This document shows, one piece after another, positions 25,347-55,200 of a stretch of 64,000 nt of DNA; the first letter of the stretch is position 1, and the number at the start of each line of letters is the position of its first letter. Location of the stretch: NCBI GenBank assembly GCA_036172245.1, contig JAYWIR010000016.1, forward strand, positions 3,100,001 through 3,164,000, given 5' to 3'. This stretch comes from Raillietiella orientalis (lineage: Eukaryota). Both the position numbers and the translations under genes were made by a program. Under the pieces are notes generated by a model. The model made no database searches, was not told where the DNA came from, and saw nothing but the letters and a program-made list of their open reading frames with translations.

Positions 25347-26451
25347 TGAATCTCCATTCCCCAAGGAGTATATGAATTTGGCAGCCAGTTCGTGTCATAA
25401 GTGAGTCACCATACTTATGTAATTAAAACTGTCTTTTTTAAAAAACAACAACACATAACAATATAACCAACACTTGGGAAACAACATTACCCCCTTTCAC
25501 CGGTGTAACAGAACGTTACTTACAACCACAACACGAACCCTCTTCACGGCATATGATGCATTCAGTATTGCACTGTTTGAAAATCTACAATTCAACAAAC
25601 AATAAATAGCAAAATAATTGAGGAAACGGAAGCATTTATACAGGAAATGTAACAGAACAATCTTGTTTTTAATTTGCTATATTTCCCTTGTAGATAAGAC
25701 TGTCTTTGAAATGTGCATCAGACTAAACGATTATAGGAATAGCTCACATTTGAATATATATTTTATACAATTTTAAAATTTATTTATAAGGGAGAGCGTT
25801 TCCCATTAAACAATTCACTGTTCTAGTAGCTCATTCTTAATGCTAACACAAAGATGTCATTCCTAACAATTCCTTTATTATTTTCTCAATTACCGAGTTC
25901 AACAAAACCACCAAGTAACAAATTTTGATAAATTCTGGCTAAGAATTCAGGAAAATATTATAGCAATAAACATACATTAAAGATTAAAATGAATGCAAGT
26001 GTAGCTAAAAACGATAGCTACAGATGCTTGCCTTCACTGAATTTTGGTTGCAAACTGCAATTCACGAAACAATATTAGGAAACTTAGCAAACGTCATAAT
26101 TTAATTTTGAAAAATTCCAATACTGCCTTGACAATTTTTTTTTTTTGACTCAAAAGGCCTCATAAGCATTGTTCATGATAGCATTTTTTAATGTCCCATA
26201 TGTTTAGAATTCACAACTTGTGCACTGCAAAGTAAACATTTTTTGTAGGACTTGTAGATGTTCAAACTCCCGCTGCACGTGCAGTGATATACTTCCTCGG
26301 AAGCCAGCTTTACTTCACACCAATCGTGCTTGTGGGTATTTGGATGTAAATGTTAGAAAAAATCACTTGAATCACTTTATCATTCCAGGATTTTTGGGAA
26401 ACTGTTATTACGTGTTGAAGCTCGATGTTTCTATTGAGCAAAGATTCATAG
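25347..26451. promoter_or_regulatory. Putative shared (head-to-head) promoter/5'UTR region of milt and KYAT
   Basis: The divergent start codons at 25346 (-) and 26452 (+) are 1.1 kb apart. No core promoter motif was identified. Confidence 0.45.
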
Positions 26452-28087
26452 ATGAATAAGTTGATTTCTGCGACCCCGTATGTGCGATTCGGTAGAAATT
26501 ATGTGACCTCTGGATGGAAAAATGATCCACTGCTTAAGTTTAAGGCTGCAGAGCGCCTAAATGGAATTGAAAAAAATGTGTGGTAAGTACATAGTCTTCA
26601 CCTTATATCAAGTAACATAGTTGAATTCCTTAGCATGTCTCCTAACATTGTTTTTGTTATTCAGGATTGAATTTATACAATTGGCAATTGAAAATAAACC
26701 CTTAAATCTTGGACAAGGGTTTCCTGATTTCAATCCACCACAGGAAGTAACAAATGCCCTGTCAGATGTGGGAAAAAGTGATGATTTTTCTTTGCATCAG
26801 TACACTAGAGGCTTTGTAAGTATTGAATAAAGTTAAGGGACTTTTTCAGCTCATAAAATCCTATTAGGGTCATCCACGTCTCATTAATATTCTATCAAAA
26901 TTGTATTCTAAATTGGTGTCACAAGACATTAATCCAAACACTGAAGTCCTGGTTACAGCAGGTGCCTATGAGGCTCTTTTTTGTTCTATTTTGGGAAACA
27001 TAAATCCTGGAGATGAAGTTATTATAATTGAACCATATTTTGATTGCTATGAGCCCATGGTACGACTAGCGCATGGTATTCCTGTGTTTGTATCTTTAAG
27101 ACCTAAAAGCCATGGAACCATAACTGACTCAGAAAATTGGACACTTGATTTGGAAGAACTGAAAGCTGCATTCAGCACACGCACAAAAGCAATAATACTG
27201 AATACTCCTCATAATCCACTTGGGAAAGTATTTTCCAGAAATGAACTAGAACTACTCTCACAACTTGTTCAGCAGTGGAATGTTCTAGTCATTTCAGATG
27301 AAGTGTATGAGTGGATGGTATATCCACCAAAGGAACACATTCGCTTTGGTATTATTTATGACTACTTACCAGCTGTATGAATATTTTTTATATAGCTTCT
27401 TTGCCCAACATGTGGGAAAGAACTATAAGTATAGGGAGTGCAGGGAAAACTCTTAGTGTGACAGGATGGAAGTTAGGGTGGGCTTATGGCCCTAAACATC
27501 TAATTCAAAATTTACAGCTTGTTCATCAGCATTGCCTTTATACATGTGCTACTCCAATACAAGAAGCTGTAGCTTGCAATCTTGAAAAGCAAGTGAACTG
27601 TTATGGAACCCAAGAATGTTACTTACAGTCTTTGGCCAAGGAATTGTTACCTAAAAGAGAACTTTTATCTAATATTTTGCAAGATACTGGTTTTCATCCA
27701 GTTATTCCAGAAGCAGGCTATTTCATGATGGCTGACTGGACCAAACTTGGTGAGCAACTGTCCACAAAAAACTTATTCTGAATGTATTTCCATGTAATGT
27801 TAGGTGGTAAAATTTCCCCATTAGATACACCTGTGTCAGAACAACATGAGGCTAAAGATTATAAATTTGTAAAATGGATGTCAAGAACGTGGAAACTCCA
27901 ATGCATTCCTTGCTCGGCATTTTATCATTCTCAGCACCAATATTTGGGTGAACAGTTCATTCGATTTTGTTTTATCAAAGTAAGCAAAAATCTTAATTAA
28001 GAATTTATGCTTTTATTGATGCAGAATGAAGACACACTGTTGAAAGCTAAACAGATTTTGAAAAAATTAAAGGCTACCTACTGTTAA
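26452..28087 (+). CDS. KYAT3: Kynurenine--oxoglutarate transaminase (KYAT1/3 family, class I PLP aminotransferase)
   Basis: Exons 26452-26582, 26665-26815, 26868-27348, 27396-27749, 27804-27979, 28025-28087. Motifs: NLGQGFPDF, HQYTRGFGHPRL, VTAGAYEAL, IIIEPYFDCY, LNTPHNPLGKVF, ISDEVYEW, the PLP lysine in SAGKTLSVTGWKLGW, and IRFCFIK. The basic N-terminus MNKLISATPYVRFGRNY resembles a mitochondrial presequence. Confidence 0.96.
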
Positions 28088-32003: not shown

Positions 32004-32735
32004 ATGTTGTTCTGGTCAGAGTACGATAAAGAGGCGAGGAACGTTAATCAGTATATCCACAGAGTGCACAATGCAGCCCAACGGGACAGATTCGAGTTCC
32101 ATAAGTAAGAGTAAGCACAGTACAGTAATCATAACGCTATGTACTCCTTGTTTGTGTGAAGAGCAGCGCTAGTGATACAGAGTTGGTTTCGAAGTGTTTT
32201 AGTGCAGAAAGCAATAAAACACTTAAATCATCAAGCACTTGTCATTCAGAACGCATGGAGGAACCATCGTAGGCGCGTGTTCCTGAAGAGAGTCTCTCGT
32301 GAGATCCAGCAGAAGAGAGATCTGGAACTGCGACAGAGGATGTGTATAAAGATACAAGCTTCGTTCAGAGGTTACTACAGTAGACGAAATGGAAGTTGCT
32401 TCCGAGATTGGAAAAGATACATTGATTTGGTTTCGGAAATCAATGCTTTAATGCTGGAATCGTTAAGGACTTATCAACTGCTACAGAAATTTGAACAGAA
32501 GAGAGTGTAAAGGGGATGCTAACTACGGGACGCTCGAGTAAACATCTAAACGCAGTTTCTTGTGCGGACATCGCTTCGACGCGTTTTTGACATTTTCAAA
32601 AGGACTCCGACTTCATGGACCTCGGAGAAAAGTCTGCCTACGGTGGCAACTTTTGGGGACCTGGGAATGTGTCGTGCGCAACTCATAAAACGGTCGATGT
32701 CTCCCTTCCCTCTTTTCCGGTACAGCAATAAGTGA
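32004..32735 (+). CDS. SPATA17: Spermatogenesis-associated protein 17-like (three IQ motifs)
   Basis: Exon 1 32004-32104 (MLFWSEYD...FEFHK, gtaaga donor). Exon 2 starts at 32162: AALVIQSWFRS...VIQNAWRNHRRR...IKIQASFRGYYSRR...KRYIDLVSEIN, with SPATA17-like spacing. It ends either at TAA 32508-32510 or through a weak-donor intron to exon 32556-32735, so the 3' end is uncertain. Confidence 0.75.
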
Positions 32736-35700
32736 TGATACATACCACTAATCACGCAATAAATCTCTGAATTACTTATTACTACTAACAACCACTGATT
32801 TTATTCTGATCTGAAATGGTTTTCTACGAGGACCTTCCAGCCTCTGATGAAACTGCGTGAACATTTCAATGCCATATCAAGTGGCTTGCACTTGTATCAT
32901 AGAAACGTCATTTTCATCTCAACAGGAATTAGTAAAAGTTCCTAAGCATCCCTGCTATCGAGCACATCTGGATACCTTTTTTTGCACATAATTCAATCCG
33001 AGGCAAAGATTATTTGCAAGCATCTTTTTTTTCATGTTGCCGAAAAACTATTGCTGTGGTGATGGTGGCTTGTAGTAACAGCATCGGTCTCTTTCAGTAG
33101 GGGATGCGTTGCATCCCACTCATTTGCTCATTAGAAAAGTCTCGAAACCACAAGTTGAGATGAGACGATGAGACAATGTGCAGAAGCTTCGAAAACATCA
33201 AATGTAAAAGACCTGAGGAAACGCTCTTCGTGCTCCGAATCAATCCAAAATGTAAATAAATGCACATTTTCTACGAACGTAGAAGGTGGTGTTCACCGAA
33301 ACGGAATAAGGCAATACAATCCATGCACCAATAAGCACAGAAGAAATATGATTAGGCCTTCTGCATAGGTACCAAACAATCCGTTTGATTGGAAGATTTC
33401 ATGATCACTAACGTTGCAGATAAAGTGAACTCGGTGGAAAGAGAAGTACCAAGAAAGAGTATAGGTGGCTAAATGTTAATCGTAGGTACCCAGAAAACGA
33501 AAATGAATACCGAGACTCTGAGCATCCTGCCCAGCAATCGGCTCTCATTCGCACAGGAAACGCGTCCAGGCTTGGTCCAAGTGAAAGGGCAACTCAGAAA
33601 CTAATCGTCCGTATCCAGTCCATCCCAGGAGACGGCTCGGAACTTCAGCCAGAACAAGTGCGAATGAATTTTCTTTCTTGAGGCTACGAAAATACCGTGT
33701 TTTGATGGTAGCATTTTTTAATAATAGTAGGGTTCATTGATCGTGTTTTTTATTCATTCCAACGAACTTGAGCAAACGCAATGAGCTGAAACGTCTGGAA
33801 TAGAGAACATTCGCAAACCAAAGAAAGTACAGAAACCTCAGAGTAAGAAATAGTTCGCTGTTTTCAGTTCCATCCGCCTTTCAAAAGCTAGGATTCAGCT
33901 CCGGAAAAAAAAATAATGAAAGGAGAACAAATATCGAGATGTGACTCTCTTGCTTTCCTCCGGAGAAGCGTTGGCATTGGTCCAAGCATAGGAGTTTAGA
34001 CGCCCTGAGATCTCAGGAACCAGGAAACCATGCATTCCTGCATGAACTCGAGATCCTTCGCACATGTGTACGAACCGCGTGAGACTCATGATGGTGAGCT
34101 CTGATGTACAAGACACAGACGAAATGTACATCAGGCTCACCTTGAGCAAGCGTCGGACTGGCCAGGGAATGCAACTCAGCTCTCCGAAAGAGATTACACT
34201 TGGTGCAAGTCACAGTAACTTGAAAGCAACAGTACAGACACTCTATTTACGCCTTGGTCCCATAGCGAAGGCAGACAGAGCGACACAAAACACATTGTAG
34301 ACAATATGCATACCAAAATTCTGAATAGAATTTGCTAACTGTAGCTTCTCGATGAATTCCCTTCGCCTTTATGCTCTCTTCCTTGCAGGAAAATAAGTCT
34401 AACGGCTATATTTCAAAAAGCCTATGGACACTGACGTCTAGTACACAAGCCACTTCTGACAGTACATGCGCACACGTAGTGCACTAACCGGACAGTGATT
34501 GCGAGCATTCCGGCTTTCCTCAAGGCTAGCAGTGAACCTTGCTTACCCTTCACAAGCGAATGAAAGAAATCACTTCAGAGCCGTAAAGACCAGATCCAAT
34601 GAATGACCTCCGGAAACTGAGCTCCAATAAAATAAGCACACACTGTTAGCGACTTGCAATCCTATTCCCTCTATGAAGACACTCAAAACCAGCTCCACTA
34701 CCATCTCCTTTGCTATTTGAGAATAATCTCACATTCGTGGTCTTCCTTGAAGTCGAGGACTCCAGATGCTGGTCATTTCTTCGACTTCTGTGGATTTCGA
34801 ATGATTTGTAGCTGTTGTTGTCTCCTAAGTGGACTTATGCAGTAATGCCTATACTCGCAGTGTGTGCAAGCACAAGAAAAGTCCATGTGACTCGCCTCGA
34901 TTATTTTGGATGCAATAGTATTCAGAACAAGTTAGGATCAATTTCCAATGCATTCCCTTATTTTTGCAATTCGGCATTGCATGTTATCAGCCCAGACAAC
35001 TCTCTTTCTAGGGTTTCCACTGCCTTCTTGTCGGACTTCCAATCTGCTGGTTTTCAGCACCGTCCTTTCTATTCTCAAGCGAAAGCAGTCTCGCCCATTT
35101 CATTTTTTTTTCTCCTTTTCTTCCAATTCTTATTCGAATCGCCCTCGTTTCTTTGAACGAGATCCCATTCCATTATTACGTGCATTAATCCAGAATAGTG
35201 GTAAAGTTTTGTGTGATTGGGTTAAGCACTTTGTGACAATATCCAATTGTGAGCAAGAGGATCGAATGCATTACACTCACACGACTTATATTGCACCTTG
35301 ACCTATATTAAGAGTTTCTTTTGTCAGTGTTCTAGAGTAACCTAACCTGCATACGCGGTCCTGATATTCATCATGTACGGTGCATGTTTTTAGCACATAG
35401 GCTAAGAACATGCAGTGTAATTTGCAGAAATCAGCAGGCGATGCGCGAAGCAATGCCTATTGCTTCCTGAAAGTACAGCTTGCACTTATTTGATACAAAA
35501 ATGAGACCATTCATGTCTCTTTAAAGAATACTGGGGCAAAAAGAGTTGGGATTATAATTCCAAAAGAAGCATTACTTTTTAGGACTGTGCTAATGAAGGG
35601 GTCACTGGAAATTCCCAAACCAGTAGCAAGAATAGCAGCAAATCATGAATGAAGTAATGTTGTTCAGCATCATGCAGTCCTTACTACTGGTTCCAAATCG

Positions 35701-36179
35701 AAGAATCGGATTTTCAATTGGGAGAAGTTTGTAAACCTCGTCCCTACTGAATGCTCAGACACCAAAGTGCACAGAAAGAGTGCCTGGATGGAACCCACCT
35801 TACTCCGAAAACAAGATCTCACTTCTCCATCTTTGAAATACTGTTTAAATTGAATTAATGAAGCTTTCCTTTTCTTAGAACGCCTTCTATTCAGAGAGCT
35901 GCTAGGCTCCATCCTGTTTCTCCTTGACTGTCTTGAAACAGCCTCTTTCAGAAATTTCCCGTTTTTCCGTACTAGTCGTCAGGACATTTAAAAGTTTGTA
36001 ATACGTGTTACAAATTTTCATAAACGTGTACGTGCGAACAGAAAAATTATTACCATTATTCCACCAAAGAATGAAAGTTCCGAAACACATCTGGTACGCC
36101 CGAGTTTCCCTCGTAATGCCATTCGTTTGAACCCATGCGATGGAGCGTGTGCTTCCAGCAGCAGAATGCAGTTAATGGA

Positions 36180-39100
36180 ATGGATGCAGTTAATTTTGAT
36201 TTCGTCGTTCCATTTCACGGGACAGATGTAAGGTTAAAAGGTGTCCATCCGGAAGATATAGATCACGAGGGGATCTGTGAACTGTCGGACAGATTAGTGG
36301 TGCAGCATGGGATTCCAGGGTATCTTTCAGAAGGTTGTTAAAATTGCGTTTGTTTAGTCACATTACATAACGTGGTTGCGCAACCTATTTATTCAGGAAC
36401 CCGGAATTGGGTGGCTGTTTTTGAACCGCTTTCCGCCCCAGAGCATGGTTCTGTGTTTGCCCCGGTTTAAAAACTGATGATCCATTTGAACGCGAGCACT
36501 TACGTTTATGGAAAACTTCAAGTTAGAAGTTCGTGAATGGCCATAAACTTGTTATGCATTTTAAACTCTGGAATCTATTATGTGAATGTGGAAACCTTTA
36601 CTTGTGCCGGTTTTGCATTTAAACTCGATCGGCATTTTTTCAATTTCAGATATAATATGATGCAAATCCTTATAATTCTATACGACGCTAGTATTAAAAT
36701 TCAGCAAGATGTTGTCTTCTGAACTTGTACTGAGCTTTCAAACCGCATTTACAGAAAGTAATAAAAAGAATTAATGGAGGTTTGTTTCAGAGATCATTCC
36801 CATTGTACAAACATGTTTACAGAATAATTTGGAAGCCCATTTTGACAGACAGGATGAAGTTCTACTTGAGAACATGCAACATACTGATGACTTGGTTTCT
36901 CAGTGGATGAAAGCCTGTGAGAAGCAGGTACAGATTTTTAAAATCTAAAGTTGTAATCTGAGATGTGTGTGTGCCAGTGGTATGGTTAGTAATCTAGTTT
37001 CTGTATGAGATTGGTACTGTGAAACTTTCTCCTGCTACTTGCTGTAGCACGGATAACTACTGTGGTGAAGTGCTGCTGATATATCAAAGTGAATCTTCAC
37101 ATAAGAATTCGTTGCATCAGTGGACTCTTAGTAAAGTTTGAAAAATTCAGTTATAGTAAACAGTGTTGTCATTATCTTTGAAGGTGCCAAATTTAGATTC
37201 AGGAATTCTATGATTGGATTTGCTTTCACTATGCACTTTCATTTGATTCATTATGATTATTTAAACACATTTTGGAGCATAACTGAAATGTTGCTGAGCT
37301 TAATTTGCTTACATTGCTCTGAATCCTTTGAATGAATTTTTCCAAATCTTGACGCAACCTCAAAAGTTGAATGTGAATAGACATTCTCAATAGTGTTGTA
37401 GAAAAATCAGATTTGTTTTTCCAGACCAATCAGTTTGTAAATGCAAAAAGTTGCATCATATGGATGAAGTCTCTACTTCTTTTTCTCCTGATGTGAGTGC
37501 TCAATTTTTATTTCATTTTACATTGTTTTTTCTTCCACTGTCTTGTAGGTGTGTGACATCAGGGTTGCCTGTATTGATGAATTTAGGAAAATTTGGTGTA
37601 TGAATGTATAGGCATGTTGTGTACACATGAATGCTTCAGTATTCAAGTGAATACCCTGTTGGTATAGCCATAAGTTATTTTATAATTATGTCATTTAAAC
37701 ATTGTGGTGAATTATTACTGACAGCAAAGGAAGTTTGCTGCAGTAATAATTTGTCTTCTGCATGTAGCTGTTGGATCACATTAATATTGAAAGTGCTTGC
37801 AGTAGTTAAGATTTATCAGTTAACCAACTAATAGCAATAGTTATCACCCTGTGTGATTATCATTATTGTTCATTTTTCCAGTACATTGTATGGAATCATT
37901 CACATTTTGACTTGATTTTATTGATTCATCAAATGTTTCTGTGGTTCTAAGTTTTAATTTTACTCTCCACATTTCCGCTACTAGCACCAGGAGACTCAAG
38001 AAAAGACTTGCACGAAAGAAGATCAGTTGTTTTGTGAAATGTACCAGAAATTAACACAGTCAGTAGCATTAGAAAATGTTCTCTTTCTGGAAATGGAACT
38101 CATAGAAACATTCCAGCAACAGTGCAAAGATATTCTTTCTGTTTACAAGTAAGTTTTGATTTTTCTCATTTACATCATGATTTTTATCACTTGCTCTGAT
38201 AAGTTCAGATGCTTCCCAGAGATTTCCCTTGAACATGAGTTACTGGTTTCAAAGTTATCCGTGTTGCATCGGCAATTTAAAAACCAGTTCAGAGAAGAAA
38301 TCGTCAAAATCGAAAATCAAATGCAAAAAGGTACTTTAAAAAAATTGACAAGCTTTGTAAGGTTAGTTTTGACTCATCCTTGTTATTTCATTCATTTTGT
38401 CACAGAGAATTTGGGCCATCTGTCTGCCAGTCGGCTTCCCACTGTAGTGAGAGCTTCACCATTCATTTGGGGATGCAAATGAAGCAATCTGTCAATTTAC
38501 GTCTAACTATTGCAGAACTGTTGGAAATTCCACTTGAGTCTTCGTATGCTGAAAGGTGGTTTTTAAAGTCTTTTAAAGAATGTTTGGTTATAATGTAAAG
38601 ATTTAGGAAATCCCAATGTTTGAATTCCTTGCTGAGTTTGTATGGCACTAATTTGAATGGAACTGTGTTACTTTCATCAGATTCCAGGACAGATTCAGGT
38701 GAACAGTTGTTTTAATGATTATATGATATCATAATGAGTAAAATGATCCCTTGATGATAATACTCAAAAAATCAATCCCATTGTTAAAAATTCAGATTAA
38801 AGATTCAGGCATTCTGCTCATAAGGCCGAAAGCTAATGACCGATTATTTCAACAGATTCGTTTTCTGAAAATCAGAAATCTCGCAAAAAACACAGCAGTC
38901 ATTTGTACAGTTTGCATTTTCATAAACCGAATGTCTAGTGTTCCTCAGAACTGCTTGCACCATGCCTGAGTTACATTTCGAAAACGTTTTTGAACAGTTG
39001 TCATTTGTCAATGATGTTATCATCAAGGAAGCTTTGCAGTGGCGTGAAAAACATCCTTCTGTTCTGGATGACCAGCTAAAAACTGCGCAGGTTAGAGTTG

Positions 39101-39666
39101 CATAAAAAAAATTAAGACTAATCAACTGCAGTAGTGTCGTGGATTTGCTTTAGGTGATGTACTTGTCACCCATCATTCCAACATACCAGATGTGCAAGTG
39201 GTATTCCACTTGGTATCAGATGGATCTCACGTCCTGAAAAACATAAACTCACGTAATCCTTTGATTTTGGGGTTAAGAAACATTCTTCGGATTGCCAGCC
39301 TTTGTGATATTACCACCTTGACCCTCCCTTTACTGTTGACACAGACCATTACCGAGGTGAGCTTTTGAAGTTTTAGCAGTGTTTGAGATCTTGCAGGAAA
39401 TGACGGTAACCTGGTGCTTGCGCATGGCAGAGCTGATGTTTAAGTGTATCAAAGGGTTCCTCATTGAGATGAATTCTTGGGGAGGGTCCCAGATCAAAAC
39501 ATTGCAATTTGTGCTACCCAAGGTATACATAATTTCAGTTTTTTATTTATACACTAATGACTTTTTTTTTCTAAAGGATCTTTCAGAAGATTTGTTTTCT
39601 AGCATGACTACCCTTCTTTCCAGCATATTTCGCATTGCCACCCCTTTAGTGGTATCCTCTGTTTAA
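36180..39666 (+). CDS. FERRY3: FERRY endosomal Rab5 effector complex subunit 3 (C12orf4 / DUF2362 homologue)
   Basis: Exons 36180-36333 (alternative in-frame ATG at 36135), 36791-36927, 37985-38148, 38209-38361, 38406-38555, 38607-38698, 38939-39090, 39135-39356, 39397-39522, 39577-39666. Motifs: SESFTIHLGMQMK, LSLYGTNLNG, ELHF, GDVLVTHHSN, VVFHLV, RNPLILGLRNIL, DITTLTLPLLL, EMTVTWCLRMAELMFKCIKGFLIEM, TLQFVLP. Confidence 0.92.
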
Positions 39667-39711
39667 ATGAGAATGTTCCTTTCTTCCAGATTTACATGTG
39701 TGAATTGAGAT

Positions 39712-40227
39712 ATGCTCAAAGCGAAGTTTTTATCAGAGACATTCAGTAAATGTTCTGGCAGAATTGTTTATGTTTCTTCTTCAAGTCCACATTTTAAAAA
39801 TAGTGCTTGTGATCAAACTGATTTAATTGGTCCTCTTGATAAACACTCTAACTTGCTGCGGGTGCATTTCTGGCTTCCAAATGCTACTAGCACCAAACTG
39901 GAGCACAGGTATTATCAGCTACGTCGGAAAGTATATAACTGGAACCATAAGTTCTGGAGGGAACACAACGAAGATTTCCATCAAGTAGGACTTCAGTATA
40001 GCTAGTGCATCTGTGTAGCATGTCTGTTGCAGTGCAAAACAAGATACCTGCAGAACTCAGAAGATCTGTCGTTGTTCTATAAGCAGTTTTTGGATGACAA
40101 ATGGCAGGTTCACTATCAGTATAATTGGCAGTGGTACAAATATAACATCTGCATCACTTTGCTAGCCGCGCTAGTCGCTGTTTCTAGATTCCTTCAGAAA
40201 ATCCATAAGGGAATAAAGGCTCTATAA
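39712..40227 (+). CDS. COA8: Cytochrome c oxidase assembly factor 8 (APOPT1 / DUF2315)
   Basis: Exons 39712-39984 and 40033-40227 (48-nt GT-AG intron). Motifs: DLIGPLDKHSNL, WNHKFWREHN, FYKQFL...HYQYNWQWYKYN, plus a presequence-like N-terminus. Confidence 0.92.
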
Positions 40228-40268
40228 TATCACAGCTTTCCATGCATTTTGCAAGGGTATTATAAAAA

Positions 40269-43200
40269 TCACATTGCTGTTTCCAAAAGTTTCGAACTGC
40301 TTGAATTGAACGAGGAGTCGCATATCAGGGGCTGAGTGGGTTTTTTTGCACTTGTTAGCTGTCTAGTTGGTTCTGTGGATGACACGGAATTCGGAACATA
40401 GGAACTACGAAAAGGATTTCCGTTATTGTAAGCAGCTCCGTCAGCCATGCAGGACATTGAATTGCTGTCCTCCATAGCCGATTTGTACGTTGAATAGTTC
40501 GTAGTTATAGTCGAATCCTCTTTGTAACCACGATTTTGAAACGTTATGTTGAACGGGGGGTGCACCATAGCATTAACGGTTGCGTTTTCGAGCTTTGGGT
40601 CATAAGCAAACCGATCGTCCAGAGATGACATGGTTGTGGAAATGTTGGTATTGTGGGAATCGAGGTGTTCGTATGCCATGTCGTCGGATGTGAGATTTCT
40701 TTCCGTGGACAGGTCCGCACTGTCGTTTTGGTTCCGGAAAGAATGCTTCAGGTTGTGAGGATACAAATATTGCGAGGGCTGCAAAGAGAAACAGTTAATC
40801 ACTGTTCATCTCGATTTCTCCTTTTGCATGGTATTGCATCGATGATTTTACTGCGTTTCCCCCCCCCCCGCCAATTCGAACCTCATCTCACAATTTCCAT
40901 CATGTTTCTAAAGATTGGGATGTGTACCTCGAAAATATGGCTGCGTGTGGGCACTTATCGTGTCTACACAGAGCGGTCTTCCTATTGCTTATCGATTCGC
41001 GCAGGGGTGTCGCCGACCCCCATGTGGTGGTTTGGCCCTTGGTGCGTTCTACAGCAGTGCGGCATTACCGTATGAGCAGCGAGAGAAGAGTTCTAACTTC
41101 ATTGTAACTTTTGTTCGTACCATCGACCAGAGTTCGATTTTTTCGTTCTCTTCTCGGCCAAACGTGCGACAACGTCCTGCCGAAGCTTCCAAGATCAACA
41201 TCAGCTTCCTCAGAACGCAACGTCCAAACAGAAGCAGATGGAAACGTAATGCCCGACGTCTCCCTCGATGGTAACGTTTTTGTTGTTCCTCTGAAACGGA
41301 ACCCGAGCAACGTCTCAGACGATGAACACGCCTGGAGCGTCTTTCCCGAACGGTCACAGCTTTCCGGTCACACAACCTCACGGATTTTTCAGCCGAGTTC
41401 AGTGCCTCGCCCGATCACACGAGGAGCAGGTTGGTCCACTTGACCGACGCTAACAAAAACAGATGTGCTTATGAGTGACCGCAGGCCGGAGCGCCGGGAA
41501 ATCGTTTTGGCTGCTCCGTATCTTACACAGAGGTGGCCGCCGGCTCGGTCTTCGACCTTTCCTCTAGGTTCATAGAATGAGTTGGCTCCTGACCAGGTGT
41601 AGACCGATGATGGCCTTTTCGCCTCAGCCATCAGTTCGTTTGAATTGGAACCGTTTGCTGCCCTCCCCGCCCCCATTCTCAGAAAAGCGCAAATCCTGTT
41701 AAATCAATCGGAGAAACGAAACCTTACGGTGATTGAAGGAACGGCGCTGTCCGAGGATAGAAATGTGGAATATTCCAAGTTATGCAACAAAAAGTTCTAC
41801 TTCTGGGACTATTGCTCAAATTTCTCCCCCAAAGAATACCGAATTGCCTCCGCAAGATTTCAGGCAAACGAATTCCGGCAGACAAATGACAAGATAATGA
41901 TTTCTAGTCTTTCTGATCCGAGCGTTCTTGCCACCACTACTTTGTTTTTCCCATGCTGCCCTCGAAAGCCCAAGGGTAAAAGGTGTAAAGCTGGATTTTT
42001 GAGCTGCTCTTTCTTTCCCCAAAAGGCCTCTCTGGCGCGCTGCCACGAGCTCTCTGAAATTTTGGCATTCCAAAAGTCCAAGGTTTCCAGTCCAGCACGT
42101 TGGAGTTGGACGTTTCCTTTTTCTAAATTCGTTTTGCGTCACGCGGGCGGATGCAACCGCCCGTTGCCTTCGAAGAAGTCCGGCACCGGTTCTTGCAATA
42201 TCCAAGAGTTTTCACTTGGTGCTGTGTGACCGACTACCTGCGCTCCACCTCGAGGATTCCGAATGGACCACAATGTTCTTCCCAATGATGCTGACGCGAC
42301 TTTCGCTTACCGCGACGCCACCCAGCGATGCCTCGAAAGGGAAACGTAATTTGCGTCTACAGCTCGTAATCTTGCAGGAATTAAGCCCAGCCTCGTCGGA
42401 AGGTTTCGAAAAGGCACGTAAAACGAGCTACTCGTGCTGAGCAAATCGAATTGCAGTCCGCTTGCTCCATTACGCCTCCGGTGCCAGCATCCTCCTCCAC
42501 TTCCTCCCCCCCCCCCCGATCGGCCGTTCGTCACATACGGTATGGACTCTTGCAGAAAAGGTGTTTTCCGGTTTCTCAGGCCCCACATTTTCCGACTGCT
42601 CCCCCAAGCAAGGCGATTCTCGAAAAGCCAGGAGCTTCCTCCTGCAGTCTTAGTTCAAACGAGACTCCTCAGCCTTGCTGCGGTCCTATGGAAAGATGGG
42701 TTCGCCAAAACCCCGTCAGCACTGGCGACAGGGTCAAGCGGTCGAAGAGGACATCCCTGCGAACGAATCACGTTGAGAAAGCGTCTCCGGAACTGCTCTT
42801 GTCCATGCTGTTCCCTTCTGTGTAGGCAACCGTTCACGAATGTCCGCAATAACCGGCGTCTCCAACAGGCGCCATATGCAAGTTGTCTAAAACTCTTTGC
42901 GCACATCCGGATGGCAAGTTGTCGCTTAGTGCCTTGGTTTGCACGGGGACGGAAGGCAGTCTTCTGAACGTGCAACAGCGGCGGCAAAGAATCGACAGAC
43001 GTGAGCCGAGTTCACCGGTAAGCCTCATCACCGGAATGACCGAACGGTCGAACCTCGGACAGGTGGTGGCACAATGGCGCGCAACAAGGGAACTGCAGCC
43101 CGGAGTCGTCGAAATCGACGTGTGTGTCGTTAAAGACGCGAAAATCTACGGGATCGTCGACTCGGATCGACGATGCAGCAGCAGCTTCCCGTTCCAATGT

Positions 43201-49200: not shown

Positions 49201-52200
49201 CGGAAGTGGACACTGAGGATGGCGCTCTCCGTCTTCAGGAAGCGAGTCGCGTGCTTCTGTCCGAGGTGGACGACGTCGATCCGCTTCGCCGTCGCGTTGT
49301 AGACGCTGCCATCGTAGATCTCGAGGACGTCGGACGCCGCCTCGGGCCGGTCCCACAGATTCGCCTGCAGCAGGCGGAACCCGAAGCTCTGGATGTCGTA
49401 GTCGTTACGAAAGATTTTCACGCACTGGACCGGGTGGTCCCGGTACTGGTAGTACAGGAAGACGCGCTCCTCCACCAGGACCACCTTCTCCGGATCGCAC
49501 ACGTCGACGAAGCCGAACAGGGAATGGGGGAGGTGGACATGCCCGAGCAGGGACAACCACCGGTTGCTCTCTTCGCTGCTCTTCCCGACCAGCACCAGGA
49601 TGTGGACGCCGAAACCCAAGTTGTCAGTGATGCTGCGGAGGAAGGTGCCCCGGAAGGCGGTCGGTCCGTGCCCTCCCGATCCGCTCACCTGTTGTGGAGC
49701 AGGATGAGACTTTCCTGGGACGACACCATGCTGATCCCGTGACCCGAAGAGTTCCTGACGATGCTGTTTTGGATCCTGGGATTCGTGAGCACGCACTGCA
49801 CGGCGGGAAAGGGTTCGCCGTGCAGCATCCCGGCGCCGTAGATGTCCACGTATTCCAGGACCGATTGCCTGGAGCGCTGCTCCTCGGGAGCCAGCGCGCC
49901 GAACTCGTAGGCGCTGGATTCCTCGAATCGGTAGGGAGTGAAGCTGCAACAGAGAGGTCCGAAGATTCCCGAGGAAGACGAAGGACCGGGCTGCAAACAA
50001 ACCCGGAGGGGGTGGGGAGGTGGGAGCACGAGCGGAAGGCTCTGTTTCGCGCTCCCATTTACAGTCCAGGGCTCCTCCCGCCCACCCGTTTCCTCTTACG
50101 GCTATGCAGAAGATGGCATTCGGGAGAAAAAAAAAGGAGCAAGTCACCAGAATGAGGATAAAAGGGACGGGGCTCGAGGGACGGAATCCATGGTGAAGAG
50201 GGAGAGGGGAGAGGTGGGGTGGGTGAGGGACAAGAAAAACACGCGCGTGCATTCACACACAACAATCCAGGAGATGGTGGGGCACGAAATTCCAGGATGG
50301 CGAAGGACCGGCCATCCTGGAATTTTACAGGAAGTACCTTCCTTCGTATGACGGAGATGGAAGAGAGCTGTCACGGGATTCCATCCTCCCGACACGGAGG
50401 GAATCACGAAGCTCTTGGGATCAGCGACGGAAGGAGGTGCGGTGGCACTGCGGGTGGATCGCATGTTCCGGGAAGAACATCCTTCGTCTGACGAAGGATG
50501 GTCGTTCCCGGGACATGCGACCGGGGAAAGGGGTTCCAGAGGACCCGATGCGTGCCATGTCTGTCGCACTGCCGAAGGGGGAGACCCGCCTTCCTAGGGA
50601 GGGAAGAGAACAGTGGCCTTTTCGGGCTCGCGGAACTGACTTCGCCGAACGGGGCTTTCATGCTCCTCCTCCTCCTCTTTGAATTCCCTTGGTGAGCAGC
50701 TGCAAGATGGGAGGATGCACAGACGGGGTGGGATGTGCGTGTGTGTGTGTGTGGGGGGGGGAGTAAGTGAGGGAGGATTCCTCTGCAAGGAGAGGCGAGG
50801 GGCCATAGAAGCGCCTGCAGGTGGAATCTCCGCGTCTCTCTCTATGGTCGTCGCCGCGTCGCCCGGGTGAACCGGCAGCAGTCGCTCCAAGGTGGGGGAG
50901 ACGGAAGCCGTTCCCGGATAGGTGGTCACGCGTTGGCGACAAACCTGGACCAAGAAAGGCTCCTTGGGGAGAAGAGATTGTTCTCAGCTGCTCCCTGGCA
51001 TCCAGAAGTCTATCCTTGACCACGAGGACTCCGGAGAGAGACGGCAGCAAATCTTTCCGGAAGCTTCGCGACCGAAACAGCTGTATCCAGGGCGACTGCC
51101 ACTGCTCCTACGGCTGTCCCAGCCGTAAAAGGAGCGCCGTCCCTTGTCAGCGGAGCGAGGGAGAGGAAGACGAAAAGGATACTAATGTGCAAGGGAGGGG
51201 GAAGAAGGGGTTAGTGGGGAGGGAAGAGATAGTCGGCCGCTATAGTCGGGCCGAGATAGTCCCCGACGGTCGCAAGTATCGACCGAACACAAGCAAGAAA
51301 ATTTCACCCACGAGGGTGGCGGGTGAGGTTCTCACTCTTAATGAGGAGCTCTGTCTTACCGTATGCCTCCCCAAGGCTGCAAATCCTCCGGGAGGTTGGG
51401 CTCTCCGCAGTGGACGAACACGAACTCGAGGCTGCCGCGTCGACACTCAACGCGGTCTCCGTCTGCGTCGCGGTCCAGGCGCACGGGGCACTCTTCGAAC
51501 CGGGTCTCGTCCCCTGACGGTTCCGGAGGGGCAGAAGCATTTCTCCCAACCTGTCCCGCTGCAATAACTCACCGTGGCAGAGGTACGACTTGGGCCACGA
51601 CAGCACGCGGTCGAGAAAGTCGTACTGGTAATCCTGCCGGCCGTCGTGGCTGTAGAACACATTGGCACCAGGGAACCCCAGCTCCCCGCATACGACCCGG
51701 GCGTTCTTCCGGGTGAACTTCCTGTCGCAGACAGGAACCCACTGCAAGGTCGTGCGGTTGTACACCTCCAGGAACCCCCTATCGGAAACCGCGGAGCAGG
51801 GGACGTCGGGGCACAGCCGGATGTTGGGCACCTGGCCGGAGCCTCTGAGGGTCAGGGATTTCGCGAGGTGTGCCTTCAAGGGCTCCATCCTGATGACTTC
51901 CTTTTCCGTACCGCGCGCGTGCAGGATTCCCAGGACAAGGATCCCTATTCCCGGAGGAAACTGTAGGTGGACCCCGGGCTCGATAGTGAGTACGGCGTCC
52001 GGCATGATGGTGAGGTCGGATTTCACGATGTATGGCTTCCCGCGTTTCGCCAGCGTGAGGGACTCGTGCAGCCTCCCACCGAGGTCGTTGACGTCCACTC
52101 GAGGGGGAGGAAGGAACGGGGAGGAAATGGGAGCGTCGAAGAAGTTGTCCATGTAGAACGGGGTGAAGTTGGCGATGGCGTAGCTGTTCCACCGATCGAA

Positions 52201-55200
52201 GTCGAAGATGCGTCTCTTGATCTCCATATGGTTGGCCGTGCCCCACCAGTTCTGCTGCATGTGGAGGACGCCGCCCAGCCTTCCGGCGGGCACCCCACAA
52301 ACGAATTCGCACTCCATGCCGTTCCCTCCGAAGAGGTTGCCCTGCACGTGAACCCTCTGGATGCCTTTCACAGCGACGGCGTAGGAGGACGGCACGCAGT
52401 CGGGAGTGGCGCACCGCCGGTAGCCTCTGGGTTCCGTGTTGTCCTGGACGACGTTCCGGAAGAACTCGGAGGGCACAAAACCCATGATTTCCGACTGGCT
52501 CCGGATGTCGTACTCCACCACGAAGCGGCAGACGTTGCCTTTCCAGGAATTGCGGGACACCAACATGTACTTCTCCGTTCCCTTCACGGAAAACAACCCG
52601 TCGCTGCACTCGTTGCTGCTGAAGACGTTGTTGTTGACCAGGACACGGGAAAAGTGCCCTCCCAGGGAGAACTCGAACTGCCTGTTATCGACGAAGAGGT
52701 TGTTTTCAATGAAGATGCTGTGGCTGATGTTGGCGTTGTACTGAACCACGTAGGGCAGCTGAATCGCCAAACCTCCTTTCTCGTTTCTTCTTATCGAGTT
52801 GTTCTGGATCCTCCAGTGGAAGATGGTGTTCGCATCGCGGAAAGTCCTGGAAGAGGAGCATGAGGTCGGGGATCGAGAGCAGACGGCGGCGGGGCGGGGA
52901 TGGGGTGGGAGTGGGGCAAGCCGGGAGGAGCAAGGCCACCGATCACTTGCTGCAGGCCACAACTGACCAGGGGTCGGTCCTTGCCGAGCAGGCGAGGCCA
53001 AACAGTGATGCTTGTTCCGAGAAGCATGGTACTGAGAGAAGGATCTCCGTGGCGAACGGCGTAGCCAGGATGAGGCGTAAGAGGAGAAGAAAGAGTAAGA
53101 CGAAAAAGAGGAAGAGCAAGGCGTAAGAAGGTGTGTGATGGATGGAAGAAGGTTGGGAGAAGCAAAGCTGATTGTTGATGCAAGTCAGCGAGATTTTCAA
53201 GCCCTACTGCTTGAGGCGGATGATGACGGATAAACAGGAGACTCTAGACGGAGAGGAATGCTGATCTCGAAGTGGAGAAAGCACGAGCGTGCACCGGTTA
53301 GGAGCTCACAGAGAGTTCGGGATGACGCGGAGGTTCATGACACCTCAGCTTTAAACCGGGCAGCGGCAAGGAGCAAATGACTGGAAGGGCGGGGGGCTGA
53401 CCGACTGCCAACGCCGGTTCGCGTTTAGGGTCGGTCCGAGCCACATTGACTCTTGTCCTCGAGGGAGGAAGAACCCTTCATTAGCACGGAAGGGCTCGAG
53501 GCGGTTTCCTGCCAAGAGAAATCGCAAGACGTGTCGGCGGTGGCGCTTCCGAGTGCAACTTAAGTGAAGTTGACCGAACGCAACATTCTGGGAAGTGCGA
53601 GAACCGCTCCAAACGAAGATTCGGGTGGAGCGCAAGACCTCGAGAACCGATGGACAGGGGGTCCGGACGGGTAAGGGATGGTGGTTGACACAAATACTGG
53701 TAGTGGTAATCCTGCGCCCAATGCATCAAGCTATACACCGAAGAGGAAAATAAATAAAATGGCAATTAAATTTTCAGCTGGGGTTGGATTTGGTTAACCG
53801 AATGGATAAAAACGGCTCGATGAAAACGTCACGGCTACCATGGAGACGTTGTAGCAATTATGACTATGCTGTGAGTTGGTGCTACAGCCGTTAATGTGGG
53901 GTCAACTGAAAAGACGCAATCCATTATTGACACAATCGGTAGCACAACTAAAAGGAAGTGTAATTTAGCGTCCGCCTTTGTTTTATTATTCTTACGTACA
54001 AAAATGTCATCCTGTGATTTCGTAGGTCCTTTAAAGTATAAGTAGGGAATGAATCCTACCTTCAGAGGATAGACTCTGCTTGATAGGTGTGCATAGAAAT
54101 GGAGTGGTTTGCAAGCTGGGTGCGCCGCGATGCCGCGTGCGAGGTCATGGCGAAAGAACAGTCGTGCATGCAAGAGGTAGAGTGGCCACTTGGAGGGAGG
54201 GAGGAGACACATTTGTCCGCAGCTGTAGTATGTGGAGGAGGAAGACAGTGGTTGCGTTCGGGTCGCGCGAAATTCGGTGTCGGTGTCCTGAAGAGGTTGG
54301 ACCGGTACCCGAAGCGGGCCGGTTCGAAGCGCTTCCCTCTGGTCGACGACCTGCAGCGAGTTTCCGCGCGCCCGGAAGCGGAAGGGGCAACTGAGACCGG
54401 AAGCTGCTCCGACTCGAAAGAAACGGCAACGCGGGGACCGCGCACCTCGTGCGTTCGCGCCGAAAAGCCCGAGCCCCACGGATGGGATTGTCGCGAGTTC
54501 GCCACGGGATAGGTGAGAAACGGGAGTGCGGAGCGGGGGGGGAAGGAGATCCTTTTCCCCGGCCGCCCTTTCTAGAGCTCCGGGACGGAGGTGCCCAAGA
54601 AAGAGCGTGAGGGGACATCGAACAAACCCGTGCAGGTGGCGCAGGATCCTCCCGTTCATGTGCACATTGGAGTCGTTGAAGACGATTTTCATCTCGGAGA
54701 CGTTGGTCGGCTTGCCGTCCCCTGGCTTGGACTCCAGAAAGACGGCTTCTTCGCTATTGAACGCCAGTTCGTTGCGTCCGTGAATGACGATGGACTGGTT
54801 GGAGTGCCGGAAGTACTGGTCCCCTCTAGCATTGGTGTAGCTGCAGGAGGGAGGAGCTGGGAACGCGCACTCGTCGCTTTTTCGTCCTACCCTTCGTAAG
54901 TGATCATGGAGATGCCGCGCCTGTTGCGCTTCAGCTCGCTGTGGAAGATCTCCAGGATGGGCTCAGGTTCGCAGCTGTGGTAGAACGACGGTTTTGCTGC
55001 TCCTGAGTGATGAGAGAACACCCGTTGGTACCAGAGCTCTCCGGTAAAAACGACCCACGGCCGGGAAGAGGCGGCTCGGGGGAGACAAAGAAGCGCGCGT
55101 GAGAGATTGCGGAGCTGCAGATGACAGAAGAAGAAGATGGGATGTACTAACTCTGGACGGAGGTGAGCATCAGCGCCACCTCGAAGACGGGACTCCCGGA

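What the first reader, a model, noticed from the sequence alone, without database searches (positions are those of the whole stretch)
39577..39730. FERRY3 and COA8 are 45 nt apart with an unpaired splice acceptor between them: candidate dicistronic/operon unit
Seen: the FERRY3 stop is at 39664-39666 and the COA8 ATG at 39712, on the same strand. The spacer has no AATAAA/ATTAAA and no room for a 3'UTR plus promoter. It does contain a strong polypyrimidine-CAG acceptor (ttcctttcttccag, ending 39689) that neither CDS needs. An in-frame TGA at 39706-39708 excludes a spliced FERRY3-COA8 fusion protein. Established: this layout typifies SL trans-spliced operons and Drosophila-type dicistronic mRNAs, and FERRY preferentially associates with mRNAs for mitochondrial proteins. 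Inference: COA8 is made from a FERRY3 co-transcript, resolved by trans-splicing, by cis-splicing from an upstream FERRY3 exon, or by reinitiation. That would couple an mRNA-transport subunit to a mitochondrial client.
Basis: partly seen in the sequence, partly recalled or inferred. Interest (0 to 1): 0.75.

Follow-up and report, generated by a model that had tools for sequence, protein, structure and literature searches.

The report
FERRY3-COA8 tight pair, possible operon
Two unrelated animal genes, FERRY3 and COA8, lie only 45 bases apart on one strand with a strong spare splice site between them, so they are probably read as one transcript, but no RNA data were available to show how the second message is made.

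Summary
FERRY3 (Pfam Fy-3) ends with TAA at 39664-39666. COA8 (Pfam PF10231, 155 codons, one 48-nt intron) starts at ATG 39712 on the same strand. Between them lie 12 straight pyrimidines plus AG (39676-39689), a pattern found 18 times on the two strands of the 64-kb window together.

FERRY3 has no AATAAA or ATTAAA. The only canonical signal in 39300-40500 is AATAAA at 40212, inside the end of COA8. No core-promoter motif stands out above background upstream of COA8. FERRY3 transcription must therefore run into COA8.

My best reading (about 0.45) is a Ciona/Oikopleura-type operon with almost no intercistronic DNA, resolved by leader trans-splicing at 39689/39690. No RNA run was listed, so this is untested.

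Rivals are an internal COA8 promoter, cis-splicing from an upstream exon, a 38-41-nt mini-intron that gives FERRY3 another tail, and reinitiation.

The proposed functional link between the two genes gains no support: 0 of 80 FERRY3 loci from metagenomes carry COA8 nearby.

The scan has already flagged many similar tight pairs in this same arthropod-like genome. One of them is reported to have RNA evidence for a leader. This locus is another candidate member, not a new kind of system.

The parts
36180..39666 (+). FERRY3 (C12orf4 / Fy-3) gene. The 3' half is well defined; the 5' exons and the start codon (36180) are approximate.
   Evidence: Pfam Fy-3 hits on 38281-38595, 39135-39356, 39397-39522 and 39577-39663. 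tblastn with homologue P0128 covers its residues 119-543. The N-terminal exons were read by eye against P0128.
39577..39666 (+). Last FERRY3 exon, with stop TAA at 39664-39666.
   Evidence: Reaches Fy-3 profile position 498 of 498. P0128 aligns to its residue 543 of 548.
39662..39667 (+). TTTAAA overlapping the FERRY3 stop. It is the only poly(A)-signal variant near the end of FERRY3 and lies 22 nt before the acceptor AG.
   Evidence: Hexamer scan. That TTTAAA can act as a signal variant is recalled, not tested.
39667..39711 (+). 45-nt spacer between the FERRY3 stop and the COA8 ATG. It holds ATGs at 39667, 39673 and 39696.
39676..39689 (+). Splice-acceptor-like site: 12 pyrimidines (39676-39687) plus AG (39688-39689). 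It is the proposed trans-splice site, with COA8 mRNA beginning at 39690.
   Evidence: Its pyrimidine run is longer than at the four real cis acceptors checked nearby.
39706..39708 (+). TGA in the COA8 frame, 3 nt before the ATG. It blocks any reading into COA8 from the acceptor.
39712..39984 (+). COA8 exon 1 (91 codons).
   Evidence: PF10231 at 2.7e-13, profile positions 2-55.
39985..40032 (+). COA8 intron, 48 nt, GT..AG.
   Evidence: The unspliced reading meets a stop codon.
40033..40227 (+). COA8 exon 2, with stop TAA at 40225-40227.
   Evidence: PF10231 at 3.1e-13, profile positions 76-121. The spliced 155-aa product aligns with 9 homologues and keeps the conserved motifs.
40212..40217 (+). 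AATAAA, the only canonical poly(A) signal in 39300-40500. It is the likely shared 3' signal.

Best explanation
FERRY3 and COA8 form one transcription unit. RNA polymerase starting at the FERRY3 promoter reads through the 45-nt spacer into COA8. This is inferred from the absence of a canonical poly(A) signal and of room for a terminator and promoter.

The COA8 message is then cut free by splicing at the spare acceptor at 39688-39689, most likely by addition of a short spliced leader in trans. That would leave a 22-nt genomic 5'UTR (39690-39711) before the ATG.

The FERRY3 message would end within the 23 nt between its stop and that acceptor. As in Ciona operons, the poly(A) site and the trans-splice site may coincide. 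TTTAAA at 39662 may act as a weak signal.

Shown here: the gene identities, the spacing, the rarity of the acceptor, and the lack of signals. Inferred: co-transcription. Not shown: the leader, the mRNA ends, and whether this animal trans-splices at all.
For: 1. The two genes are on the same strand and 45 nt apart. FERRY3 ends exactly where its homologues end.

2. The run of 12 pyrimidines plus AG is rare: 18 in 128 kb of both strands, and 2 on the + strand of the 17-kb genic stretch. It is stronger than the four real cis acceptors checked in these two genes.

3. There is no AATAAA or ATTAAA for FERRY3. The only canonical signal is at 40212, inside COA8. The closest FERRY3 relative found (L074, 61-67% identity in the segments of the shared exon, same intron positions) has an ordinary 3'UTR with AATAAA 83 nt after its stop and no COA8. 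So the junction here is a derived, compacted state.

4. This layout matches published operons. In Ciona, 16 of 18 operons lack AATAAA within 40 nt of the upstream poly(A) site, and poly(A) is added at the G of the acceptor AG. Oikopleura intercistronic regions are 23-30 nt (PMC1488885, passages read).

5. In the 512 nt before the COA8 ATG there is no TATA, DRE, E-box or Ohler-type motif. There is one Inr-like TCAGTT, against 0.36 expected by chance.

6. As a lead only, not tested here: earlier notes of this scan list many same-strand pairs 36-234 nt apart in this same genome. One of them (e1-7631493) is reported to have RNA showing a leader spliced on just before the downstream ATG.
Against: There is no RNA evidence of any kind for this locus.

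No spliced-leader RNA gene, and no other Rfam family, was found in the window.

The acceptor has possible weak cis partners 38 and 41 nt upstream, while a real intron of 40 nt exists in the same gene.

After splicing at 39690 the short 5'UTR would still hold an out-of-frame ATG at 39696. Its 17-codon frame overlaps the COA8 start.

The two other + strand gene starts in the window (kynurenine aminotransferase and FERRY3 itself) also have a TTCCAG acceptor shortly before the ATG. Those have plausible donors 53 and 65 nt upstream, so they look like ordinary 5'UTR introns. An acceptor before an ATG is therefore not in itself a sign of trans-splicing here.

The pairing is not conserved: 0 of 80 FERRY3 loci elsewhere carry COA8.
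Confidence: 0.45

Rival explanations
1. COA8 has its own promoter inside FERRY3's last exons or last intron. The two units simply overlap, and FERRY3 transcripts run on to the AATAAA at 40212. The pyrimidine tract is incidental, or acts as a TCT-type initiator.
For: Overlapping tandem genes are common in compact animal genomes (recalled). The pyrimidine tract matches the TCT initiator pattern YYCTTTYY at 39677. An Inr-like TCAGTT lies at 39535 in the last FERRY3 intron.
Against: The Inr match is at background frequency and has no DPE. No TATA, DRE or other motif was found. A run of 12 pyrimidines plus AG is rare, which argues for a splice function. TCT initiators are typical of ribosomal-protein genes, not of COA8 (recalled).
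Confidence: 0.17
2. COA8 shares the FERRY3 promoter and a non-coding 5' exon. That upstream exon is cis-spliced directly to the 39689 acceptor, skipping all FERRY3 coding exons, as in nested or alternative-exon loci.
For: FERRY3 seems to have a 5'UTR intron: a GT at 36094 and an acceptor ending at 36158. So a non-coding first exon with a usable donor may exist. The acceptor at 39689 is strong.
Against: The donor would have to skip about ten good acceptors over 3.5 kb in a genome whose introns here are 40-66 nt long, apart from one of about 460 nt. The putative first exon contains an ATG at 36071.
Confidence: 0.12
3. The acceptor belongs to FERRY3. A 38- or 41-nt mini-intron (39652 or 39649 to 39689) removes the stop codon and gives FERRY3 an alternative 19-residue tail ending at TAA 39747-39749. 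COA8 expression would then need a separate explanation.
For: Weak GT sites lie at 39649 and 39652, both in phase 0. A real 40-nt intron exists in the same gene (39357-39396).
Against: The unspliced tail (PLVVSSV) resembles the homologues' tails (PLILQANS in P0128, PLRLSSSS in L074). The alternative tail resembles none of them. The donors GTGGTA and GTATCC are poor, and 38 nt is below the smallest intron seen.
Confidence: 0.08
4. A mature dicistronic FERRY3-COA8 mRNA is made, and COA8 is translated by termination-reinitiation or leaky scanning, as in Drosophila-type dicistronic genes.
For: The two genes share a single canonical poly(A) signal at 40212. The FERRY3 stop overlaps an ATG (TAAATG, ATG at 39667). 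That ATG opens a 13-codon frame, in the COA8 frame, that stops at TGA 39706-39708, 3 nt before the COA8 ATG.
Against: Reinitiation after a reading frame of more than 500 codons is inefficient without special elements (recalled). The spacer shows no unusual RNA structure (z = -1.41). This reading leaves the rare strong acceptor unexplained.
Confidence: 0.08

Closest known systems
Ciona intestinalis SL-resolved operons without intercistronic DNA (Satou et al. 2006, PMC1488885; passages read)
   Same: Same-strand pair less than 100 nt apart. An unpaired acceptor lies just before the downstream gene. The upstream gene has no canonical AATAAA (16 of 18 Ciona cases). There is hardly any room between the upstream 3' end and the acceptor.
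   Different: Here the animal is arthropod-like, not a tunicate. Neither the leader nor the poly(A) site has been seen. In Ciona the poly(A) site was mapped to the G of the acceptor AG; here that is only proposed.
Oikopleura dioica operons (intercistronic regions of 23-30 nt and no AATAAA in upstream cistrons, as cited in PMC1488885; median 31-33 nt in PMC7986045)
   Same: The distance from stop to acceptor is 23 nt. Introns are very short (40-54 nt for the five at the 3' end of the pair). No canonical signal is present.
   Different: A different phylum, and no RNA proof here.
Caenorhabditis elegans operons (SL2 type with spacers of about 100 nt; rare SL1 type without a spacer)
   Same: An upstream and a downstream gene are read as one transcript, and the downstream mRNA is freed by leader trans-splicing. 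The SL1 type also lacks a spacer (PMC1488885).
   Different: The SL2 type has AAUAAA and a spacer of about 100 nt, and neither is present here. The three characterised SL1-type operons keep AATAAA (PMC1488885), and this junction does not.
Drosophila-type dicistronic mRNAs (recalled, no paper read)
   Same: Two unrelated reading frames lie on one strand with a short spacer and a single 3' signal.
   Different: Those do not need a splice acceptor between the frames. Here a rare strong acceptor sits in the spacer.

Membership tests
SL-resolved operon with little or no intercistronic DNA (Ciona/Oikopleura type) | Neighbouring genes on the same strand, less than about 100 nt apart | tested here: met
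   45 nt from stop to ATG, and 23 nt from stop to the acceptor AG.
SL-resolved operon with little or no intercistronic DNA (Ciona/Oikopleura type) | An unpaired splice acceptor just upstream of the downstream start codon | tested here: inconclusive
   A strong acceptor is present. But weak GT sites 38 and 41 nt upstream cannot be ruled out as partners, since the shortest real intron is 40 nt.
SL-resolved operon with little or no intercistronic DNA (Ciona/Oikopleura type) | The upstream cistron lacks the canonical AAUAAA near its 3' end | tested here: met
   No AATAAA or ATTAAA in 39300-40211.
SL-resolved operon with little or no intercistronic DNA (Ciona/Oikopleura type) | A spliced leader is joined to the downstream mRNA at that acceptor | not testable with these tools
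SL-resolved operon with little or no intercistronic DNA (Ciona/Oikopleura type) | The organism has SL RNA genes and SL trans-splicing | not testable with these tools
No genome is held. No Rfam family was found in the window.
SL-resolved operon with little or no intercistronic DNA (Ciona/Oikopleura type) | A polycistronic precursor spans the junction | not testable with these tools
   This needs RT-PCR or long-read cDNA.
C. elegans SL2-type operon | AAUAAA of the upstream gene, followed by a spacer of about 100 nt with a U-rich element before the acceptor | tested here: not met
   No AATAAA is present, and only 23 nt lie between stop and acceptor. The U-rich element is recalled from memory.
FERRY3 / Fy-3 (Pfam PF10154) | A match to the family profile above the curated cut-off, reaching the C-terminal end | tested here: met
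   94.6 and 67.6 bits against a cut-off of 25.8. The last exon reaches position 498 of 498.
COA8 / APOPT1 (Pfam PF10231) | A match to the family profile above the curated cut-off | tested here: met
   50.5 and 50.3 bits for the two exons against a cut-off of 27. Conserved motifs are kept in an alignment with 9 homologues. Profile positions 56-75, a linker of variable length, are absent.

The most novel reading that the evidence does not exclude
This arthropod-like animal uses Ciona-style operons with no intercistronic DNA. The FERRY3 message would end, and the COA8 message begin, at one and the same phosphodiester bond (39689/39690), with a spliced leader added to COA8. Together with the other tight pairs flagged in this genome, that would be a case of operons in Arthropoda. 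A 2021 survey stated that operons had not been reported in the trans-splicing crustacean groups (copepods and amphipods) (PMC7986045, passage read).
Probability: 0.4. Interest if true: 0.7.

Novelty: new member of a known kind. Interest (0 to 1): 0.4.

Why it matters
If RNA confirms it, this junction is one more data point for operons in an arthropod-like animal. That would add a further independent origin of animal operons, and a second lineage in which the poly(A) site and the trans-splice site may coincide.

On its own the locus is a candidate, not a proof. The attractive idea that an mRNA-transport subunit is deliberately coupled to a mitochondrial client is not backed by any conservation of the gene pair. 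The pairing looks like a lineage-specific product of genome compaction.

Tried and rejected
RNA evidence: the look-up of sequencing runs on 36000-40400 (kind rna) listed no RNA holder.

Whole genome: none is held.

Rfam on the whole window: 0 matches at gathering score.

The search for homologous proteins, all three searches used. COA8 exon 1 at near lengths gave no candidate. COA8 exon 1 at longer lengths gave 17 candidates, none significant. The FERRY3 exon at longer lengths gave 3 hits, all Fy-3 only and none with an organism name.

COA8 exon 1 against 1.84 billion representatives gave 116 hits, of which 114 are 73-354 aa long. Of the three longer ones, P0002 has no COA8 or Fy-3 domain in Pfam, and P0001 and P0004 were not checked and are assumed to be repeat matches. 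Of the 10 long hits checked with Pfam, 0 carry Fy-3. Names in the top clusters were oyster, starfish, wasp and mammals, which is too distant to place the window.

Earlier-findings look-ups by place (near, relatives) returned nothing.

The similarity between the junction and a second pyrimidine-AG site at 35878 is only about a 1% event: 4 of 413 genomic windows and 5 of 2000 shuffles reach its score. I do not claim a junction motif.

The reading frame that ends just before 35878 (35653-35850) has no Pfam hit and no ESM Atlas lead. A three-gene operon is therefore not supported.

RNA folding of 39630-39740 is unremarkable (z = -1.41).

The bacterial promoter/terminator scan is irrelevant to a eukaryote and is ignored.

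ORFs downstream of FERRY3 in relative L074 show no recognisable gene.

A literature search for C12orf4 together with APOPT1 found 2 papers, both expression lists and neither about linkage (search listing only).

Full report
**What is there**

The window is eukaryotic, with very short introns. On the + strand, Pfam identifies the 3' exons of a FERRY3 (Fy-3, C12orf4) gene. Exon 39135-39356 scores 1e-26 and exon 39397-39522 scores 1.5e-18. The last exon, 39577-39663, matches only weakly (E 0.031, 13.8 bits) but reaches the end of the profile, position 498 of 498.

A 548-aa homologue (P0128) aligns up to its residue 543 at 39660, so the gene ends here, at TAA 39664-39666.

Forty-five bases later, ATG 39712 opens a COA8 (APOPT1) gene. 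Exon 1 is 39712-39984, a 48-nt intron follows, and exon 2 is 40033-40227. Each exon matches PF10231 at about 3e-13. The spliced 155-residue product keeps the family's conserved motifs when aligned with nine homologues. It lacks only a linker of variable length.

**Is the acceptor more than chance?**

The site is 12 uninterrupted pyrimidines (39676-39687) followed by AG. That pattern occurs 10 times on the + strand and 8 times on the - strand of the 64-kb window, mostly in GC-rich low-complexity DNA. In the 17-kb genic stretch 24-41 kb it occurs twice on the + strand and never on the - strand. The chance of one falling in a given 45-nt interval is therefore about 0.6%.

The four real cis acceptors checked in these two genes have interrupted tracts and are weaker.

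One amendment to "unpaired": weak GT sites lie 41 and 38 nt upstream (39649 GTGGTA, 39652 GTATCC). This gene has a real 40-nt intron at 39357-39396. Use of either donor would delete the FERRY3 stop and add an unrelated 19-residue tail. The unspliced tail resembles the homologues' tails, so I rate this reading low. It cannot be excluded without RNA.

**Signals**

Between 39300 and 40500 the only canonical poly(A) signal is AATAAA at 40212, inside the last codons of COA8. Near the FERRY3 stop the only variant hexamer is TTTAAA at 39662, which overlaps the stop and lies 22 nt before the acceptor AG.

Other genes look different. The kynurenine aminotransferase gene in the same window has an ATTAAA about 95 nt after its stop. 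The closest FERRY3 relative I could find (metagenome locus L074) has AATAAA 83 nt after its stop.

In the 512 nt before the COA8 ATG there is no TATA, DRE, E-box or Ohler-type motif. There is one Inr-like TCAGTT at 39535, with no DPE, against 0.36 expected by chance. The pyrimidine tracts also match the loose TCT initiator pattern.

The spacer RNA has no unusual structure (z = -1.41).

So FERRY3 transcription must pass through the COA8 start. This step is a firm inference.

**How COA8 is most likely made**

The layout matches the intercistron-less operons of Ciona and the 23-30-nt spacers of Oikopleura. In Ciona, 16 of 18 mapped operons lack AATAAA, and poly(A) is added at the G of the acceptor AG (PMC1488885, passages read).

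My best reading (0.45) is therefore a FERRY3-COA8 precursor that is resolved by leader trans-splicing at 39689/39690, with the FERRY3 3' end formed at or just before that point.

The rivals are:
- an internal COA8 promoter with overlapping transcripts (0.17);
- cis-splicing from a non-coding FERRY3 first exon (0.12);
- the mini-intron that gives FERRY3 an alternative tail (0.08);
- a mature dicistronic mRNA with reinitiation (0.08).

The last rival has one curious feature in its favour. The FERRY3 stop overlaps an ATG (TAAATG). That ATG opens a 13-codon frame which ends at TGA, 3 nt before the COA8 ATG.

Two points count against trans-splicing. An out-of-frame ATG at 39696 would remain in the 22-nt 5'UTR. 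The other two + strand gene starts in the window also have a TTCCAG acceptor, 63 and 21 nt before their ATGs, but with plausible donors 53 and 65 nt upstream. Those look like ordinary 5'UTR introns.

**RNA**

No reads could be laid. No genome is held, and the window contains no Rfam family. The mechanism is therefore untested.

**Relatives**

A scan of metagenome contigs with an alignment of the 74-residue FERRY3 exon returned 80 loci (98 confirmed, best 80 kept). tblastn found no COA8 in any of them at E up to 1e-4. A COA8 profile built from 107 or fewer of the 116 representative hits also found none. Its best chance hits were two at E = 0.36, while the positive control on the window's own exons gave 1.5e-26 and 5.4e-14.

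Of the 80 loci, 55 have at least 700 nt beyond the match, 33 have at least 1500 nt, and 19 have at least 3000 nt.

The closest loci (L074 and L079, 61-67% identical in the segments of the shared exon) share the window's intron positions but not the junction.

Among the 116 COA8 representatives, none has a length that would fit a FERRY3-COA8 fusion model. Of the 10 long ones checked with Pfam, 0 carry Fy-3.

The pairing is thus lineage-specific as far as can be seen. No close relative was sampled.

**The functional idea**

FERRY does bind mRNAs for mitochondrial proteins in human cells: 66 of 252 bound transcripts (bioRxiv 10.1101/2021.06.20.449167, passages read). Nothing here suggests that the linkage with COA8 is selected for that reason.

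**Context from the scan**

Earlier notes on the same genome call it arthropod-like. They list many same-strand pairs 36-234 nt apart with spare acceptors: UTP23-NAXD, SLC35C1-QARS1, PGAP1-STRAP, VHL-RUVBL1, PLPBP-MARS2-ZDHHC16, WASHC5 plus a partner, and Ku80-CHRAC1-EF1delta. One of them, REXO4-CNBP, is reported to have RNA showing a leader. I could not test these notes. They raised my odds for trans-splicing, and they mean that this locus is a further instance of something the scan has already found.

My own weak check of the taxon: the aminotransferase reading frame scores higher against the kynurenine aminotransferase chains 5veh and 1yiy (216 bits) than against the mammalian enzymes (181-188 bits). 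I recall those two entries as mosquito enzymes.

A 2021 methods paper states that operons had not been reported in copepods or amphipods, the arthropods known to trans-splice (PMC7986045, passage read). My searches (listings only) showed no later report. The one candidate I opened, the Parhyale genome paper, speaks only of a polycistronic miRNA transcript (PMC5111886, passages read). No supplements were consulted.

**Verdict**

The co-transcription inference is sound. The mechanism is unproven, and the functional coupling is unsupported. I file it as a candidate new member of a known kind, of moderate interest.

Noticed in passing
window 35841-35878 (+): This is the only other run of 12 pyrimidines plus AG on the + strand of the genic stretch. 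It lies about 300 nt upstream of the FERRY3 ATG. It is preceded by the same 10-mer (CTGTTTAAAT) that spans the FERRY3 stop at the COA8 junction. The similarity is only about a 1% event (4 of 413 genomic windows, 5 of 2000 shuffles). No recognisable gene ends there. It could be FERRY3's own 5' splice or trans-splice site.
   Followed up: partly
window 39664-39714 (+): The FERRY3 stop overlaps an ATG (TAAATG). That ATG opens a 13-codon frame in the COA8 frame, which ends at TGA 3 nt before the COA8 ATG. A second, out-of-frame ATG at 39696 opens a 17-codon frame that overlaps the COA8 start.
   Followed up: partly
window 39091-39134, 39357-39396, 39523-39576, 39985-40032: Introns are extremely short (44, 40, 54 and 48 nt), with weak donors (GTTAGA, GTGAGC, GTATAC, GTAGGA) and interrupted pyrimidine tracts.
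   Followed up: yes
window 42000-64000 (- strand frames 51307-53184 and 61505-63718): A GC-rich block (55-62% GC, against about 37% around FERRY3) has very long open frames on the - strand. They carry SRCR and right-handed beta-helix Pfam matches. This looks like a large gene of quite different composition, not the retrotransposon island I first assumed.
   Followed up: no
window 26336-28087 (+) and 17058-18724 (-): A kynurenine aminotransferase gene on the + strand has its ATG near 26452, a likely 53-nt 5'UTR intron, and ATTAAA about 95 nt after the stop. A TRAK/Milton-like gene (Pfam HAP1_N) lies on the - strand. An IQ-motif exon lies at 32160-32507 (+).
   Followed up: partly
L074 6001-6790; L079 136-840: These metagenome contigs carry the closest FERRY3 relatives found (61-67% identity in the segments of the shared exon). 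They share the window's last two intron positions. In L074 there is an ordinary 3'UTR with AATAAA 83 nt after the stop.
   Followed up: partly
window 39607-39623 (+): A second acceptor-like site (10 pyrimidines plus AG) lies inside the last FERRY3 coding exon, 66 nt upstream of the spacer acceptor.
   Followed up: no
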